A stretch of 64,000 nt of DNA from the human T2T-CHM13v2.0 reference genome, Homo sapiens. Shown here piece after piece: positions 56,643 through 64,000 of this stretch. How positions within the stretch are numbered: position 1 is the stretch's first letter; each line of letters begins with the position of its first letter. The translations under genes and the position numbers were made by a program. The stretch is from assembly GCF_009914755.1 (NCBI RefSeq), contig NC_060925.1; one strand, 5' to 3'. The notes under the pieces are model-generated. The model had not been told where the DNA came from and made no database searches. It was given only the letters and a program-made list of their open reading frames with translations.

Positions 56643-59600
56643 TCACTGATAAAAGTAGCACCTCTGCTCTTGGACATATTCATAGGGTGAAGTGCTACTA
56701 GGAAAACTGAGAAAATATGAGCCAGAACTTCCCCCATCATGGTTACTTCCTCCTTTGCAATAAGAATACCCATCTTGCCCTGAGCCACTTCCATGCTGAC
56801 TATAACCAGAGGACTGTCCTGAGCCAGACCCATGTTGGCCGTAGCTGGAAGAGTGCCCGGAACCGGACCCATGTCGGCCGCGACTAGGAGACTGGCCAGA
56901 TCCAGAGCCCTGTTGGCCATAGCTAGAAGACTGACTTGAGCCAGAGCCATGCTGACCGTGGCTGGAAGACTGACCTGTGCTAGATCCCTCCTGGTCAAAG
57001 GTTGATGACTGTCCTGATGTAGAACCATGCTGTCCTTGGCTACAGAAGTGCCCTGAGCCACTACCATGCTGACTGTAAGCAGAGGAATGTCCTGAGCCAG
57101 ACTCATGTTGACCAAAGACAGAAGAGTGACCCAAGCGAGACTCATATGGGCCACGGCTGGAAGAACGACCTGAGCCAGACCCATGTTGGCCGTGGCTGGA
57201 GGAGTGCCCCAAACCGGACCCATGTCGGCCGTGGCTAGGGGACTGGCCAGATCCAGACCCTTGTCGGCTGTGGCCCGAAGACTGACGGGAGCCAGACCCA
57301 TGCTGACCATAGCGGGAAGACGAACCTGAGCTAGATCCGTGTCGTTCACCCCTAGATGACTGTCCTGATCTAGAGCCGTGTTGTCCGTAGCCAGAGGAGT
57401 GACCTGAGCCAGACCCATGCTGACTGTAACTAGAGGACTGCCCTGAGCTAGACTCGTGGTGACCAAAGCCAGAAGACTCGCCTAAGCCAGACCCATGTTG
57501 GCCACTGCTGGAAGACCGACCGGAGCCAGACCCATGTCGGCCATAGCTGGGAGACTGCCTTGACCCAGACCCACGCTGGCCGTGGCCTGGAGACTGGCCA
57601 GATCCAGAGCCCTGTCGGCCATAGCCAGAAGACTGACTTGAGCCAGAGCCATGCTGACCGTGGCTGGAAGACTGACCTGAGCTAGCTCCATGTTGGCCAC
57701 AGCTCGATGACTGTCCTGATGCAGAACCATGTTGCCCATGGGTAGAGGAATGACCTGAGCTAGATCCATGTTGACCGTAGCCAGAGGACTGTCCTGAGCG
57801 AGACTCTCGGTGACCTAAGCCAGAAGAGTGACCGGAGCCAGACTCATATGGGCCACGGCTGGAAGACCACCCTGAGCCAGACCCATATGGGCCGTAGCTG
57901 GAAGACTGCCCAGAACCAGACCCATGTCGGCCACGGCTAGGGCTAGGAGACTGGCCAGATCCAGACCCATGTTGGCCGTGGCCCAAAGACTGACGGGAGC
58001 CAGACCCATGCTGACCATAGCTGGAAGATGAACCTGAGCTAGATCCGTGTTGTTCACCCCTAGATGACTGTCCTGACCTAGAGCCGTGTTGTTCGTAGCT
58101 GGAGGAGTGACCTGAGCCAGATCCATGCTGAGTGTAACCAGAGGACTGCCATGAGCTAGACTCATGGTGACCAAATCCAGAAGACTGACCTGAGCCAGAC
58201 CCATGTCGGCCACTGCTGGAAGACCAACCGGAGCCAGACCCATGTTGGCCGTAGCTGGAAGAGTGCCCGGAACCGGACCCATGTCGGCCGCGACTAGGAG
58301 ACTGGCCAGATCCAGAGCCCTGTTGGCCATAGCTAGAAGACTGACTTGAGCCAGAGCCATGCTGACCGTGGCTGGAAGACTGACCTGTGCTAGATCCCTC
58401 CTGGTCAAAGGTTGATGACTGTCCTGATGTAGAACCATGCTGTCCTTGGCTACAGAAGTGCCCTGAGCCACTACCATGCTGACTGTAAGCAGAGGAATGT
58501 CCTGAGCCAGACTCATGTTGACCAAAGACAGAAGAGTGACCCGAGCGAGACTCATATGGGCCACGGCTGGAAGAACGACCTGAGCCAGACCCATGTTGGC
58601 TGTGGCTGGAGGAGTGCCCCAAACCGGACCCATGTCGGCCGCGGCTAGGGGACTGGCCAGATCCAGACCCTTGTCGGCCGTGGCCCGAAGACTGACGGGA
58701 GCCAGACCCATGCTGACCATAGCGGGAAGACGAACCTGAGCTAGATCCGTGTCGTTCACCCCTAGATGACTGTCCTGATCTAGAGCCGTGTTGTCCGTAG
58801 CCAGAGGAGTGACCTGAGCCAGACCCATGCTGACTGTAACTAGAGGACTGCCCTGAGCTAGACTCGTGGTGACCAAAGCCAGAAGACTCGCCTAAGCCAG
58901 ACCCATGTTGGCCACTGCTGGAAGACCGACCGGAGCCAGACCCATGTCGGCCGTAGCTGGGAGACTGCCTTGACCCAGACCCACGCTGGCCGTGGCCTGG
59001 AGACTGGCCAGATCCAGAGCCCTGTCGGCCATAGCCAGAAGACTGACTTGAGCCAGAGCCATGCTGACCGTGGCTGGAAGACTGACCTGAGCTAGCTCCA
59101 TGTTGGCCACAGCTCGATGACTGTCCTGATGTAGAACCATGTTGCCCATGGGTAGAGGAATGACCTGAGCTAGATCCATGTTGACCGTAGCCAGAGGACT
59201 GTCCTGAGCGAGACTCTCGGTGACCTAAGCCAGAAGAGTGACCGGAGCCAGACTCATATGGGCCACGGCTGGAAGACCACCCTGAGCCAGACCCATATGG
59301 GCCGTAGCTGGAAGACTGCCCAGAACCAGACCCATGTCGGCCACGGCTAGGGCTAGGAGACTGGCCAGATCCAGACCCATGTTGGCCGTGGCCCAAAGAC
59401 TGACGGGAGCCAGACCCATGCTGACCATAGCTGGAAGATGAACCTGAGCTAGATCCGTGTTGTTCACCCCTAGATGACTGTCCTGACCTAGAGCCGTGTT
59501 GTTCGTAGCTGGAGGAGTGACCTGAGCCAGATCCATGCTGAGTGTAACCAGAGAACTGCCATGAGCTAGACTCATGGTGACCAAATCCAGAAGACTGACC

Positions 59601-62600
59601 TGAGCCAGACCCATGTCGGCCACTGCTGGAAGACCAACCGGAGCCAGACCCATGTTGGCCGTAGCTGGAAGAGTGCCCGGAACCGGACCCATGTCGGCCG
59701 CGACTAGGAGACTGGCCAGATCCAGAGCCCTGTTGGCCATAGCTAGAAGACTGACTTGAGCCAGAGCCATGCTGACCGTGGCTGGAAGACTGACCTGTGC
59801 TAGATCCCTCCTGGTCAAAGGTTGATGACTGTCCTGATGTAGAACCATGCTGTCCTTGGCTACAGAAGTGCCCTGAGCCACTACCATGCTGACTGTAAGC
59901 AGAGGAATGTCCTGAGCCAGACTCATGTTGACCAAAGACAGAAGAGTGACCCGAGCGAGACTCATATGGGCCACGGCTGGAAGAACGACCTGAGCCAGAC
60001 CCATGTTGGCCGTGGCTGGAGGAGTGCCCCAAACCGGACCCATGTCGGCCGCGGCTAGGGGACTGGCCAGATCCAGACCCTTGTCGGCTGTGGCCCGAAG
60101 ACTGACGGGAGCCAGACCCATGCTGACCATAGCGGGAAGACGAACCTGAGCTAGATCCGTGTCGTTCACCCCTAGATGACTGTCCTGATCTAGAGCCGTG
60201 TTGTCCGTAGCCAGAGGAGTGACCTGAGCCAGACCCATGCTGACTGTAACTAGAGGACTGCCCTGAGCTAGACTCGTGGTGACCAAAGCCAGAAGACTCG
60301 CCTAAGCCAGACCCATGTTGGCCACTGGTGGAAGACCGACCGGAGCCAGACCCATGTCGGCCGTAGCTGGGAGACTGCCTTGACCCAGACCCACGCTGGC
60401 CGTGGCCTGGAGACTGGCCAGATCCAGAGCCCTGTCGGCCATAGCCAGAAGACTGACTTGAGCCAGAGCCATGCTGACCGTGGCTGGAAGACTGACCTGA
60501 GCTAGCTCCATGTTGGCCACAGCTCGATGACTGTCCTGATGTAGAACCATGTTGCCCATGGGTAGAGGAATGACCTGAGCTAGATCCATGTTGACCGTAG
60601 CCAGAGGACTGTCCTGAGCGAGACTCTCGGTGACCTAAGCCAGAAGAGTGACCGGAGCCAGACTCATATGGGCCACGGCTGGAAGACCACCCTGAGCCAG
60701 ACCCATATGGGCCGTAGCTGGAAGACTGCCCAGAACCAGACCCATGTCGGCCACGGCTAGGGCTAGGAGACTGGCCAGATCCAGACCCATGTTGGCCGTG
60801 GCCCAAAGACTGACGGGAGCCAGACCCATGCTGACCATAGCTGGAAGATGAACCTGAGCTAGATCCGTGTCGTTCACCCCTAGATGACTGTCCTGACCTA
60901 GAGCCGTGTTGTTCGTAGCTGGAGGAGTGACCTGAGCCAGATCCATGCTGAGTGTAACCAGAGGACTGCCATGAGCTAGACTCGTGGTGACCAAATCCAG
61001 AAGACTGACCTGAGCCAGACCCATGTCGGCCACTGCTGGAAGACCAACCGGAGCCAGACCCATGTTGGCCGTAGCTGGAAGAGTGCCCGGAACCGGACCC
61101 ATGTCGGCCGCGACTAGGAGACTGGCCAGATCCAGAGCCCTGTTGGCCATAGCTAGAAGACTGACTTGAGCCAGAGCCATGCTGACCGTGGCTGGAAGAC
61201 TGACCTGTGCTAGATCCCTCCTGGTCAAAGGTTGATGACTGTCCTGATGTAGAACCATGCTGTCCTTGGCTACAGAAGTGCCCTGAGCCACTACCATGCT
61301 GACTGTAAGCAGAGGAATGTCCTGAGCCAGACTCATGTTGACCAAAGACAGAAGAGTGACCCGAGCGAGACTCATATGGGCCACGGCTGGAAGAACGACC
61401 TGAGCCAGACCCATGTTGGCCGTGGCTGGAGGAGTGCCCCGAACCGGACCCATGTCGGCCGCGGTTAGGGGACTGGCCAGATCCAGACCCTTGTCGGCCG
61501 TGGCCCGAAGACTGACGGGAGCCAGACCCATGCTGACCATAGCGGGAAGACGAACCTGAGCTAGATCCGTGTCGTTCACCCCTAGATGACTGTCCTGATC
61601 TAGAGCCGTGTTGTCCGTAGCCAGAGGAGTGACCTGAGCCAGACCCATGCTGACTGTAACTAGAGGACTGCCCTGAGCTAGACTCGTGGTGACCAAAGCC
61701 AGAAGACTCGCCTAAGCCAGACCCATGTTGGCCACTGCTGGAAGACCGACCGGAGCCAGACCCATGTCGGCCGTAGCTGGGAGACTGCCTTGACCCAGAC
61801 CCACGCTGGCCGTGGCCTGGAGACTGGCCAGATCCAGAGCCCTGTCGGCCATAGCCAGAAGACTGACTTGAGCCAGAGCCATGCTGACCGTGGCTGGAAG
61901 ACTGACCTGAGCTAGCTCCATGTTGGCCACAGCTCGATGACTGTCCTGATGTAGAACCATGTTGCCCATGGGTAGAGGAATGACCTGAGCTAGATCCATG
62001 TTGACCGTAGCCAGAGGACTGTCCTGAGCGAGACTCTCGGTGACCTAAGCCAGAAGAGTGACCGGAGCCAGACTCATATGGGCCACGGCTGGAAGACCAC
62101 CCTGAGCCAGACCCATATGGGCCGTAGCTGGAAGACTGCCCAGAACCAGACCCATGTCGGCCACGGCTAGGGCTAGGAGACTGGCCAGATCCAGACCCAT
62201 GTTGGCCGTGGCCCAAAGACTGACGGGAGCCAGACCCATGCTGACCATAGCTGGAAGATGAACCTGAGCTAGATCCGTGTTGTTCACCCCTAGATGACTG
62301 TCCTGACCTAGAGCCGTGTTGTTCGTAGCTGGAGGAGTGACCTGAGCCAGATCCATGCTGAGTGTAACCAGAGAACTGCCATGAGCTAGACTCATGGTGA
62401 CCAAATCCAGAAGACTGACCTGAGCCAGACCCATGTCGGCCACTGCTGGAAGACCAACCGGAGCCAGACCCATGTTGGCCGTAGCTGGAAGAGTGCCCGG
62501 AACCGGACCCATGTCGGCCGCGACTAGGAGACTGGCCAGATCCAGAGCCCTGTTGGCCATAGCTAGAAGACTGACTTGAGCCAGAGCCATGCTGACCGTG

Positions 62601-64000
62601 GCTGGAAGACTGACCTGTGCTAGATCCCTCCTGGTCAAAGGTTGATGACTGTCCTGATGTAGAACCATGCTGTCCTTGGCTACAGAAGTGCCCTGAGCCA
62701 CTACCATGCTGACTGTAAGCAGAGGAATGTCCTGAGCCAGACTCATGTTGACCAAAGACAGAAGAGTGACCCGAGCGAGACTCATATGGGCCACGGCTGG
62801 AAGAACGACCTGAGCCAGACCCATGTTGGCCGTGGCTGGAGGAGTGCCCCAAACCGGACCCATGTCGGCCGCGGCTAGGGGACTGGCCAGATCCAGACCC
62901 TTGTCGGCTGTGGCCCGAAGACTGACGGGAGCCAGACCCATGCTGACCATAGCGGGAAGACGAACCTGAGCTAGATCCGTGTCGTTCACCCCTAGATGAC
63001 TGTCCTGATCTAGAGCCGTGTTGTCCGTAGCCAGAGGAGTGACCTGAGCCAGACCCATGCTGACTGTAACTAGAGGACTGCCCTGAGCTAGACTCGTGGT
63101 GACCAAAGCCAGAAGACTCGCCTAAGCCAGACCCATGTTGGCCACTGGTGGAAGACCGACCGGAGCCAGACCCATGTCGGCCGTAGCTGGGAGACTGCCT
63201 TGACCCAGACCCACGCTGGCCGTGGCCTGGAGACTGGCCAGATCCAGAGCCCTGTCGGCCATAGCCAGAAGACTGACTTGAGCCAGAGCCATGCTGACCG
63301 TGGCTGGAAGACTGACCTGAGCTAGCTCCATGTTGGCCACAGCTCGATGACTGTCCTGATGTAGAACCATGTTGCCCATGGGTAGAGGAATGACCTGAGC
63401 TAGATCCATGTTGACCGTAGCCAGAGGACTGTCCTGAGTGAGACTCTCGGTGACCTAAGCCAGAAGAGTGACCGGAGCCAGACTCATATGGGCCACGGCT
63501 GGAAGACCACCCTGAGCCAGACCCATATGGGCCGTAGCTGGAAGACTGCCCAGAACCAGACCCATGTCGGCCACGGCTAGGGCTAGGAGACTGGCCAGAT
63601 CCAGACCCATGTTGGCCGTGGCCCAAAGACTGACGGGAGCCAGACCCATGCTGACCATAGCTGGAAGATGAACCTGAGCTAGATCCGTGTCGTTCACCCC
63701 TAGATGACTGTCCTGACCTAGAGCCGTGTTGTTCGTAGCTGGAGGAGTGACCTGAGCCAGATCCATGCTGAGTGTAACCAGAGGACTGCCATGAGCTAGA
63801 CTCGTGGTGACCAAATCCAGAAGACTGACCTGAGCCAGACCCATGTCGGCCACTGCTGGAAGACCAACCGGAGCCAGACCCATGTTGGCCGTAGCTGGAA
63901 GAGTGCCCGGAACCGGACCCATGTCGGCCGCGACTAGGAGACTGGCCAGATCCAGAGCCCTGTTGGCCATAGCTAGAAGACTGACTTGAGCCAGAGCCAT
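56643..64000 (-). CDS. HRNR: Hornerin exon 3, 3' portion (~2450 codons visible; 5' end outside the window)
   Basis: G/S/Q/H-rich repeats (GQHGSGSGQSSSY); C-terminus SPYEYVQEQRCYFYQ* with TGA at 56645-56643. The ORF-track start at 63626 is an internal TTG; the frame stays open to the window edge. Confidence 0.98.
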   Translation of the reverse strand, partial: GSGSSQSSSYGQQGSGSGQSPSRGRHGSGSGHSSSYGQHGSGSGWSSSSGRHGSGSGQSSGFGHHESSSWQSSGYTQHGSGSGHSSSYEQHGSRSGQSSRGERHGSSSGSSSSYGQHGSGSRQSLGHGQHGSGSGQSPSPSRGRHGSGSGQSSSYGPYGSGSGWSSSRGPYESGSGHSSGLGHRESHSGQSSGYGQHGSSSGHSSTHGQHGSTSGQSSSCGQHGASSGQSSSHGQHGSGSSQSSGYGRQGSGSGQSPGHGQRGSGSRQSPSYGRHGSGSGRSSTSGQHGSGLGESSGFGHHESSSGQSSSYSQHGSGSGHSSGYGQHGSRSGQSSRGERHGSSSGSSSRYGQHGSGSRQSSGHSRQGSGSGQSPSRGRHGSGLGHSSSHGQHGSGSGRSSSRGPYESRSGHSSVFGQHESGSGHSSAYSQHGSGSGHFCSQGQHGSTSGQSSTFDQEGSSTGQSSSHGQHGSGSSQSSSYGQQGSGSGQSPSRGRHGSGSGHSSSYGQHGSGSGWSSSSGRHGSGSGQSSGFGHHESSSWQFSGYTQHGSGSGHSSSYEQHGSRSGQSSRGEQHGSSSGSSSSYGQHGSGSRQSLGHGQHGSGSGQSPSPSRGRHGSGSGQSSSYGPYGSGSGWSSSRGPYESGSGHSSGLGHRESRSGQSSGYGQHGSSSGHSSTHGQHGSTSGQSSSCGQHGASSGQSSSHGQHGSGSSQSSGYGRQGSGSGQSPGHGQRGSGSRQSPSYGRHGSGSGRSSSSGQHGSGLGESSGFGHHESSSGQSSSYSQHGSGSGHSSGYGQHGSRSGQSSRGERHGSSSGSSSRYGQHGSGSRQSSGHGRQGSGSGQSPNRGRHGSGSGHSSSHGQHGSGSGRSSSRGPYESRSGHSSVFGQHESGSGHSSAYSQHGSGSGHFCSQGQHGSTSGQSSTFDQEGSSTGQSSSHGQHGSGSSQSSSYGQQGSGSGQSPSRGRHGSGSGHSSSYGQHGSGSGWSSSSGRHGSGSGQSSGFGHHESSSWQSSGYTQHGSGSGHSSSYEQHGSRSGQSSRGERHGSSSGSSSSYGQHGSGSRQSLGHGQHGSGSGQSPSPSRGRHGSGSGQSSSYGPYGSGSGWSSSRGPYESGSGHSSGLGHRESRSGQSSGYGQHGSSSGHSSTHGQHGSTSGQSSSCGQHGASSGQSSSHGQHGSGSSQSSGYGRQGSGSGQSPGHGQRGSGSRQSPSYGRHGSGSGRSSTSGQHGSGLGESSGFGHHESSSGQSSSYSQHGSGSGHSSGYGQHGSRSGQSSRGERHGSSSGSSSRYGQHGSGSRQSSGHSRQGSGSGQSPSRGRHGSGLGHSSSHGQHGSGSGRSSSRGPYESRSGHSSVFGQHESGSGHSSAYSQHGSGSGHFCSQGQHGSTSGQSSTFDQEGSSTGQSSSHGQHGSGSSQSSSYGQQGSGSGQSPSRGRHGSGSGHSSSYGQHGSGSGWSSSSGRHGSGSGQSSGFGHHESSSWQFSGYTQHGSGSGHSSSYEQHGSRSGQSSRGEQHGSSSGSSSSYGQHGSGSRQSLGHGQHGSGSGQSPSPSRGRHGSGSGQSSSYGPYGSGSGWSSSRGPYESGSGHSSGLGHRESRSGQSSGYGQHGSSSGHSSTHGQHGSTSGQSSSCGQHGASSGQSSSHGQHGSGSSQSSGYGRQGSGSGQSPGHGQRGSGSRQSPSYGRHGSGSGRSSSSGQHGSGLGESSGFGHHESSSGQSSSYSQHGSGSGHSSGYGQHGSRSGQSSRGERHGSSSGSSSRYGQHGSGSRQSSGHGRQGSGSGQSPSRGRHGSGLGHSSSHSQHGSGSGRSSSRGPYESRSGHSSVFGQHESGSGHSSAYSQHGSGSGHFCSQGQHGSTSGQSSTFDQEGSSTGQSSSHGQHGSGSSQSSSYGQQGSGSGQSPSRGRHGSGSGHSSSYGQHGSGSGWSSSSGRHGSGSGQSSGFGHHESSSWQSSGYTQHGSGSGHSSSYEQHGSRSGQSSRGEQHGSSSGSSSSYGQHGSGSRQSLGHGQHGSGSGQSPSPSRGRHGSGSGQSSSYGPYGSGSGWSSSRGPYESGSGHSSGLGHRESRSGQSSGYGQHGSSSGHSSTHGQHGSASGQSSSCGQHGASSGQSSSHGQHGSGSSQSSGYGRQGSGSGQSPGHGQRGSGSRQSPSYGRHGSGSGRSSSSGQHGSGLGESSGFGHHESSSGQSSSYSQHGSGSGHSSGYGQHGSRSGQSSRGERHGSSSGSSSRYGQHGSGSRQSSGHSRQGSGSGQSPSHGRHGSGLGHSSSHGQHGSGSGRSSSRGPYESRLGHSSVFGQHESGSGHSSAYSQHGSGSGHFCSQGQHGSTSGQSSTFDQEGSSTGQSSSHGQHGSGSSQSSSYGQQGSGSGQSPSRGRHGSGSGHSSSYGQHGSGSGQSSGYSQHGSGSGQDGYSYCKGGSNHDGGSSGSYFLSFPSSTSPYEYVQEQRCYFYQ
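56821..64000 (-). repeat. HRNR: 1410-bp (470-aa) coding macro-repeat, 5.1 copies visible, built from ~39-aa/13-aa sub-repeats
   Basis: The same anchor gagccagacccatgttggccgtagctggaagagtgcccgg at 56821, 58231, 59641, 61051, 62461 and 63871. Confidence 0.98.

What the first reader, a model, noticed from the sequence alone, without database searches (positions are those of the whole stretch)
58231..64000. HRNR array has a 2820-bp dimeric higher-order repeat
Seen, labelling units A-E from 56821 at 1410-bp steps: five diagnostic sites alternate. 57269/58679/60089/61499/62909 = T,C,T,C,T (HSRQ/HGRQ). 57508/58918/60328/61738/63148 = C,C,G,C,G (SSSS/SSTS). 58051/59461/60871/62281/63691 = T,T,C,T,C (EQH/ERH). 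58144/59554/60964/62374/63784 = G,A,G,A,G (QSS/QFS). 58164/59574/60984/62394/63804 = A,A,G,A,G (silent). So B resembles D and C resembles E; I found only one C/E difference (63439). Inference: the latest expansion duplicated a two-unit (940-aa) block by unequal crossover, like satellite HORs but inside a coding exon.
Basis: seen in the sequence. Interest (0 to 1): 0.7.

Follow-up and report, generated by a model that had tools for sequence, protein, structure and literature searches.

The report
Two-unit duplication in giant hornerin allele
The skin gene hornerin here has two adjacent 2,820-base blocks that differ at one base, likely left by one recent unequal crossover; this is one of several block duplications in a 6,848-codon allele of a repeat already known to vary between people, not a many-copy satellite-style unit.

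Summary
The five sites are as reported, and lag 2820 beats lag 1410: 1 difference in 2820 bp against 14. The pattern fails on both sides (A vs C 7 differences, D vs F 5).

Beyond the window, the near-identical array runs to about 74,250 and is organised differently. Three extra 708-bp half-units share one junction and give 2118- and 3528-bp blocks; the 3528-bp pair is almost as young (2 of 3356). The CDS is one open 20,547-nt frame (6848 aa, against 2850 aa for the reference protein), which the RefSeq model appears to cut with false introns.

Best reading: one recent in-register unequal crossover, offset by two units, in a known polymorphic coding VNTR. In toy simulations the signal never arose with monomer-only turnover (0 of 3570 arrays). 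It arose in 11-16% of arrays when multi-unit events were allowed.

Nested higher-order repeats in HRNR (39 bp x9x2x2) and its length polymorphism are published. This allele's block map was not found in nine searches. Real, with modest novelty.

The parts
58646..61465 (-). Copy 1 of the 2820-bp (940-codon) block. Its left edge can lie anywhere in 58646-59303.
   Evidence: lag-2820 mismatches stop at 58645 and resume at 62123, with one at 60619
61466..64000 (-). Copy 2 of the 2820-bp block, cut here at the window edge; it runs on to window place 64285.
63439..63439 (-). The only difference between the copies: a CpG transition, Arg to His, found in 1 of 13 copies of this position.
56821..64000 (-). 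In-register 1410-bp units A-E and the start of F, cut at the window edge. Beyond the window (window places): units run in register to about 65410; half-unit junctions lie in a 53-bp exact match at 65385-65437, 67503-67555 and 71031-71083; a 2118-bp block spans 65411-67528 and a 3528-bp block 67529-71056; the near-identical array ends near 74252.
56643..64000 (-). Coding part of HRNR exon 3, cut at the window edge. It starts at window place 77051 (20,409 nt, no internal stop); with exon 2 (78677-78814) it gives 20,547 nt, or 6848 aa. The RefSeq exon boundary at 65434 lies inside the first junction.
60020..60051 (+). One of 7 exact copies of the 32-mer fine-mapped as an FLG-AS1 eQTL motif by Lu et al. 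2023. It carries the unit-position-391 A allele; there is one copy per 2820-bp block.
62840..62871 (+). The same 32-mer in copy 2 of the block.

Best explanation
Two adjacent 2820-bp blocks in HRNR exon 3 differ at one base and likely come from a single recent unequal crossover between repeats misaligned by two 1410-bp units, which added 940 codons in frame. Shown: the two copies, the breakpoint interval (copy 1 starts at 58646-59303), the open frame, and the rest of the array's 2118- and 3528-bp blocks. Inferred: the array holds two older unit classes. A derived class 'alpha' carries three linked CpG transitions; class 'beta' keeps the ancestral bases. The crossover copied a neighbouring alpha-beta pair, which is why the sites alternate. 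It is one step in an inferred history: one out-of-register crossover in a 53-bp match between the two halves made a 3528-bp module, that module was multiplied to three junctions, one copy lost a unit (2118 bp), and then came the 2820-bp gain. The likely effect is dosage (more Gly/Ser-rich repeats), not a new function.
For: 1 of 2820 differences at lag 2820 against 14 of 2820 at lag 1410. Phased units 2 and 4 are identical and 3 and 5 group at 97/92 support; the two units within the block differ at 7 sites, and all 7 recur. No junction sequence or indel lies in 56821-65410. In simulations the signal arose in 0 of 3570 kept arrays with monomer-only events, and in 311 of 2916 and 329 of 2097 when 2- and 3-unit events were allowed. 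The three extra halves share private 970A and 1037A, and the halves before them share 44A and 1073T, so the junction arose once. The length sum fits: 6848 - 2850 aa = 3998 aa = 11,994 bp = 3x3528 - 1410 + 2820; the gene span of about 24,108 bp against 12,112 bp in GRCh38 agrees. NAHR among repeats is the reported source of FLG exon-3 alleles (PMC13720807).
Against: Only one haplotype was examined and no reads were seen. The order of events comes from 23 variable sites, 14 of them CpG transitions that can recur; 14 of 45 informative site pairs fail the four-gamete test, so the history is mosaic and not unique. The length sum assumes GRCh38 differs only by whole or half units. Romero's table gives GRCh38 units at most 96.81% alike against 99.15-99.93% here, so GRCh38 is probably not the direct ancestor. 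The simulation is a toy model with my own parameters. The unit-order permutation alone is weak (P 0.04-0.13).
Confidence: 0.8

Rival explanations
1. The alpha-beta dimer is a true higher-order unit that is amplified repeatedly in the population; CHM13 happens to carry two copies.
For: 5 of 6 alpha halves are followed by a beta half across the array. The next X half carries 391A after 6 of 6 alpha halves and 391G after 4 of 4 beta halves that have one.
Against: Only two 2820-bp copies exist. The other alpha-beta neighbours sit in 2118- and 3528-bp blocks, so shared descent from one module explains the adjacency. No mechanism is evident that would favour a two-unit offset when units differ by about 0.4%.
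Confidence: 0.1
2. The second copy is a false duplication in the assembly.
For: The copies are 99.96% alike, and the inferred VNTR length here (about 19.8 kb) is well above the 13.5-kb mean of assemblies (PMC10234305).
Against: The one difference is a CpG transition, the commonest class among this array's variants (14 of 23), not an indel. The longest perfect repeat in the array is 1973 bp, far below HiFi read length (recalled). The frame stays open for 20.5 kb.
Confidence: 0.05
3. No gain in length occurred: a long gene-conversion tract, or several short ones, overwrote two units with the two next to them.
For: The array is a mosaic: 60090-61464 is identical to 68556-69930 at lag 8466, and four-gamete failures are common.
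Against: It needs one tract of 2.8 kb or more, or seven markers converted in step; conversion tracts in humans are mostly much shorter (recalled). The length sum is met with a +2820 step.
Confidence: 0.05

Closest known systems
Nested higher-order repeat of HRNR, 39 bp x9 x2 x2 = about 1.4 kb (Paar et al. 2011, as described in Romero et al. 2018, PMC6280949)
   Same: Same gene and exon. The 39-, 351-, 702/708- and 1410-bp tiers are seen here.
   Different: Built on a six-unit reference sequence with units at most 96.81% alike. It has no tier above 1.4 kb, no extra half-units, and no 2820-, 2118- or 3528-bp blocks.
HRNR exon-3 VNTR and eQTL (Lu et al. 2023, PMC10234305)
   Same: Same locus: 7.8 kb in GRCh38, mean 13.5 kb in assemblies. 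Length and motifs are associated with HRNR, FLG and FLG-AS1 expression.
   Different: In the text read it treats length and k-mer counts, not unit order. Its figures could not be seen.
FLG exon-3 repeat alleles made by NAHR (PMC13720807; PMC5174745)
   Same: Neighbouring S100 fused-type gene with in-frame gain and loss of repeats by intragenic recombination.
   Different: The passages read describe mostly single-repeat steps; here the steps are 1.5, 2 and 2.5 units.
Satellite and NBPF (Olduvai triplet) higher-order repeats
   Same: A multi-monomer block whose copies are more alike than its monomers.
   Different: Those are many-copy arrays of clearly diverged monomers (alpha satellite recalled; NBPF seen only in search listings). 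Here there are two copies, and the monomers differ by 0.5%.

Membership tests
Higher-order repeat (satellite sense; definition recalled) | Made of two or more distinguishable monomers | tested here: met
   7 of 1410 differences between the two units of the block; only 0.5%
Higher-order repeat (satellite sense; definition recalled) | Copies of the block are more alike than neighbouring monomers | tested here: met
   1 of 2820 against 14 of 2820
Higher-order repeat (satellite sense; definition recalled) | The block is repeated many times in tandem and is the array's period | tested here: not met
   Two copies; the match ends at 58645 and 62123; the rest of the array follows lags 2118, 3528 and 5646
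Higher-order repeat (satellite sense; definition recalled) | Allele lengths in the population step by the block | not testable with these tools
   No other human haplotype was available; the protein search returned no hornerin
Coding VNTR allele made by unequal crossover (FLG type) | In-frame gain with the reading frame intact | tested here: met
   20,547-nt CDS with one terminal stop
Coding VNTR allele made by unequal crossover (FLG type) | Breakpoints inside homologous sequence, with no foreign junction bases | tested here: met
   In-register 2820-bp block; half-unit junctions inside a 53-bp exact match
Coding VNTR allele made by unequal crossover (FLG type) | Locus is length-polymorphic among people | not testable with these tools
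   Reported in PMC10234305 and PMC12855859; not tested on sequence here
Assembly false duplication | Copies identical, or differing only by error-type changes | tested here: not met
   One CpG transition
Assembly false duplication | Halved read depth and no spanning reads | not testable with these tools
   No reads available

The most novel reading that the evidence does not exclude
Long human HRNR alleles have grown a fifth tier above the published 1.4-kb unit. Two unit classes (alpha, beta) are amplified together as modules of 2820 and 3528 bp, so allele lengths step by modules, not monomers. The 32-mer that fine-maps FLG-AS1 expression marks one half-unit per module, so the eQTL would be counting modules. 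Many people would then make hornerin chains of up to about 6850 residues that the annotation hides.
Probability: 0.25. Interest if true: 0.55.

Novelty: new member of a known kind. Interest (0 to 1): 0.3.

Why it matters
The dimer itself is an ordinary event in a known coding VNTR. The block map matters more. It shows this long HRNR allele grew by multi-unit and half-unit-shifted duplications, and it gives diagnostic sites for typing haplotypes. It ties one such site to a published fine-mapped eQTL motif for FLG-AS1, next to the main atopic-dermatitis gene. It also indicates that the CHM13 gene model (LOC124905679) understates a protein 2.4 times the length of the reference, which affects variant calling and proteomics.

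Tried and rejected
(1) Protein homologue search with the N-terminal 3333 aa of exon 3: 3 hits among 7965 scored candidates (macaque filaggrin-2, rat Flg2, a kangaroo-rat protein) and no hornerin. No other allele or primate could be compared.
(2) DNA search of the genome with one unit: only a 69% match about 150 kb away, likely FLG2 by position (not checked). No second near-identical locus appeared, but the search gives lower bounds.
(3) Supplements: PMC12855859, 0 of 5 files mention HRNR. PMC10234305 showed eQTL tables but no allele lengths in the rows seen, and file 1 was not searched. PMC6280949's unit alignment gave no text, and 1 of 3 parts was read. Allele-length data may lie in figures or files not seen.
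(4) Romero's clustering of GRCh38 units 3 and 5 was considered as support for a dimer and rejected: their table shows 52 differences for 3/5 against 39 for 4/5.
(5) PRDM9-type 13-mer (recalled): 0 matches on either strand of the 17,432-bp array.
(6) A tree of ten units phased at position 131 was mostly unresolved, with 1 of 7 inner branches well supported.
(7) Dating with recalled mutation rates gave about 290 kyr, 95% range 7-1635 kyr. This is too wide to use, and the one difference could predate a crossover between two alleles.

Full report
Observation. All 25 bases at the five sites match the sequence, and the stated amino-acid changes are right. The array does not end at the window edge, so I fetched the next 18 kb; places above 64000 below are window places beyond the edge. 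With it, mismatches at lag 2820 stop at 58645 and resume at 62123, with a single one between, at 60619/63439. That is 1 of 2820 over 58646-61465, against 14 of 2820 at lag 1410. D and F share two markers that B lacks (unit positions 391 and 415), so the block starts after 58645. F departs from D at unit position 1073, so it starts no later than 59303. Phased there, units 2 and 4 are identical and units 3 and 5 differ at one base. That base is a CpG transition, Arg to His. Against the reading: a permutation of unit order gives only P = 0.04-0.13, because there are few units.

It is two copies, not a period. After 65410 the array leaves the 1410 register three times, each time by 708 bp. Each unit has a 702-bp half X and a 708-bp half Y, with 619 of 702 aligned bases identical. 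On the + strand the order is six XY units, then Y'XY (2118 bp, 65411-67528), Y'XYXY (3528 bp, 67529-71056) and Y'XYX, then divergent sequence from about 74,250. All three junctions lie in the same 53-bp stretch, the longest exact match between the halves. The three Y' halves share two private variants and the three halves before them share two more, so the junction arose once and was copied. Other young matches are lag 3528 over 66874-70229 (2 of 3356) and lag 2118 over 64979-66675 (1 of 1697). The 3528 bp at 61883-65410 differ from 67529-71056 at 10 sites. Ten full XY units differ by 1-12 bases over 45 pairs, 99.15-99.93% identity.

Why the sites alternate. Of 13 near-identical Y halves, 6 carry 1231T and 1344A (class alpha) and 7 carry 1231C and 1344G (class beta). 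The next X half has 391A after 6 of 6 alpha halves and 391G after 4 of 4 beta halves that have one. The paralogous half shows the beta bases at all three sites, so alpha is derived, by three CpG transitions. The order is alpha, alpha, beta, alpha, beta, beta | alpha, beta | alpha, beta, beta | alpha, beta. The 2820-bp event copied one alpha-beta pair. The history is mosaic: 14 of 45 informative site pairs fail the four-gamete test, and 14 of 23 variable sites are CpG transitions that can recur.

Mechanism. Inferred: misalignment by two units and one crossover. In a toy model of arrays turning over by duplication and deletion, I kept arrays with 4-10 differences per unit at lag 1. The signal (a 2820-bp window with at most 1 difference at lag 2 and at least 10 at lag 1) appeared in 0 of 3570 kept arrays (12,000 simulated) with monomer events only. 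It appeared in 311 of 2916 and 329 of 2097 kept arrays (12,000 simulated each) when two- and three-unit events were allowed. So a two-unit event is needed, and it is unremarkable once offsets vary. The age is poorly bounded (about 290 kyr, 7-1635 kyr, recalled rates). An assembly artefact is unlikely but not excluded: the longest perfect repeat is 1973 bp and the difference is of the commonest mutation class, but no reads were seen.

The gene. Exon 2 (138 nt) plus exon 3 from 77051 to 56643 gives 20,547 nt with one stop, or 6848 aa. The reference protein has 2850 residues (PMC7461550, passages). The difference, 3998 aa or 11,994 bp, equals seven units plus three 708-bp halves, and also 3x3528 - 1410 + 2820. 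A TATA box at 79780 gives a gene span near 24,108 bp against 12,112 bp in GRCh38. The RefSeq CHM13 model has four exons, starts at the ATG and ends an exon at 65434. That boundary is a CAG/GT inside the first junction, with 9 of 20 pyrimidines upstream against 16 of 20 at the real acceptor. Same-context donor sites recur upstream at 5 of 6 offsets tested. HRNR is described as three exons with no intron in the repeat (PMC6280949). I infer false introns; the model's other boundaries were not visible to me.

Link to published eQTL work. Lu et al. 2023 (PMC10234305; passages, section 6 part 1, and supplement rows read) report this VNTR at 7.8 kb in GRCh38 and 13.5 kb on average in assemblies, with expansion tied to lower FLG and FLG-AS1 expression. 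Their 32-mer, with PIP 0.9999 for FLG-AS1 in tibial nerve, carries 391A and has 7 exact copies here, exactly the X halves with 391A. Each 2820-bp block adds one copy. Against over-reading: total length has the lower P value in that row (6.5e-80 against 4.6e-76), and other tissues fine-map other motifs or length itself.

What is known. Romero et al. 2018 (PMC6280949; parts 1-4 of 5 read, covering the main text, plus supplement part 1 of 3) confirm the 39 bp x9 x2 x2 hierarchy of Paar et al. 2011 in HRNR. Paar 2011 and Takaishi 2005 were seen only as cited there. A higher-order repeat within this exon is therefore in print. [quoted passage not shown] FLG alleles arise by NAHR (PMC13720807, passages). 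A sweep at HRNR has been proposed (PMC5174745, passages), and hornerin repeat fragments are antimicrobial (PMC6399351 and PMC6212518, passages). Passages of PMC12776774, PMC12903361, PMC10594789 and bioRxiv 10.64898/2026.08.11.744322 added nothing on unit order. Nine searches found no description of the 2820-, 2118- or 3528-bp blocks or of a 6848-aa allele. The library lacks most subscription papers, and figures were not visible.

Verdict. The duplication is real and correctly spotted. 'Dimeric higher-order repeat' fails the many-copy test. It works like the first step of one and is best filed as a multi-unit duplication in a known coding VNTR. Interest 0.3; most of the value lies in the full block map, the long open frame and the link to the eQTL motif.

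Noticed in passing
window places 65434 and 56643-77051 (beyond the window; L005-L007): The RefSeq CHM13 model LOC124905679 ends an exon at a CAG/GT inside a repeat junction, yet the frame is open through all 20.4 kb. These are likely false introns hiding a 6848-aa protein; a real in-frame exitron is not excluded.
   Followed up: partly
window places 57200, 58610, 60020, 62840, 66368, 68486, 72014: The 32-mer fine-mapped for FLG-AS1 expression by Lu et al. 2023 matches exactly the seven half-units that carry the derived 391A (Ser to Leu) allele.
   Followed up: partly
window places 56821-73876: 19 of 23 variable sites among the near-identical copies change an amino acid and none makes a stop or frameshift, which suggests little constraint on residues but an intact frame.
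   Followed up: no
window places 56821-74252: Units here are 99.15-99.93% alike, while Romero's supplement gives at most 96.81% for GRCh38 (their main text says 98.3%, a figure their table assigns to orangutan). This allele may be far more homogenised than the reference, though the unit definitions differ.
   Followed up: partly
window 60090-61464 vs window places 68556-69930 (L005): A 1375-bp perfect match at lag 8466: unit C and the start of D are identical to a copy 8.5 kb away, one base closer than to their own duplicate in E-F.
   Followed up: partly
L001-L004, G000:C1:151490730-151493219: A 69% match to the HRNR unit over about 1.4 kb, about 150 kb away; by position likely the FLG2 repeat region (not checked).
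   Followed up: no
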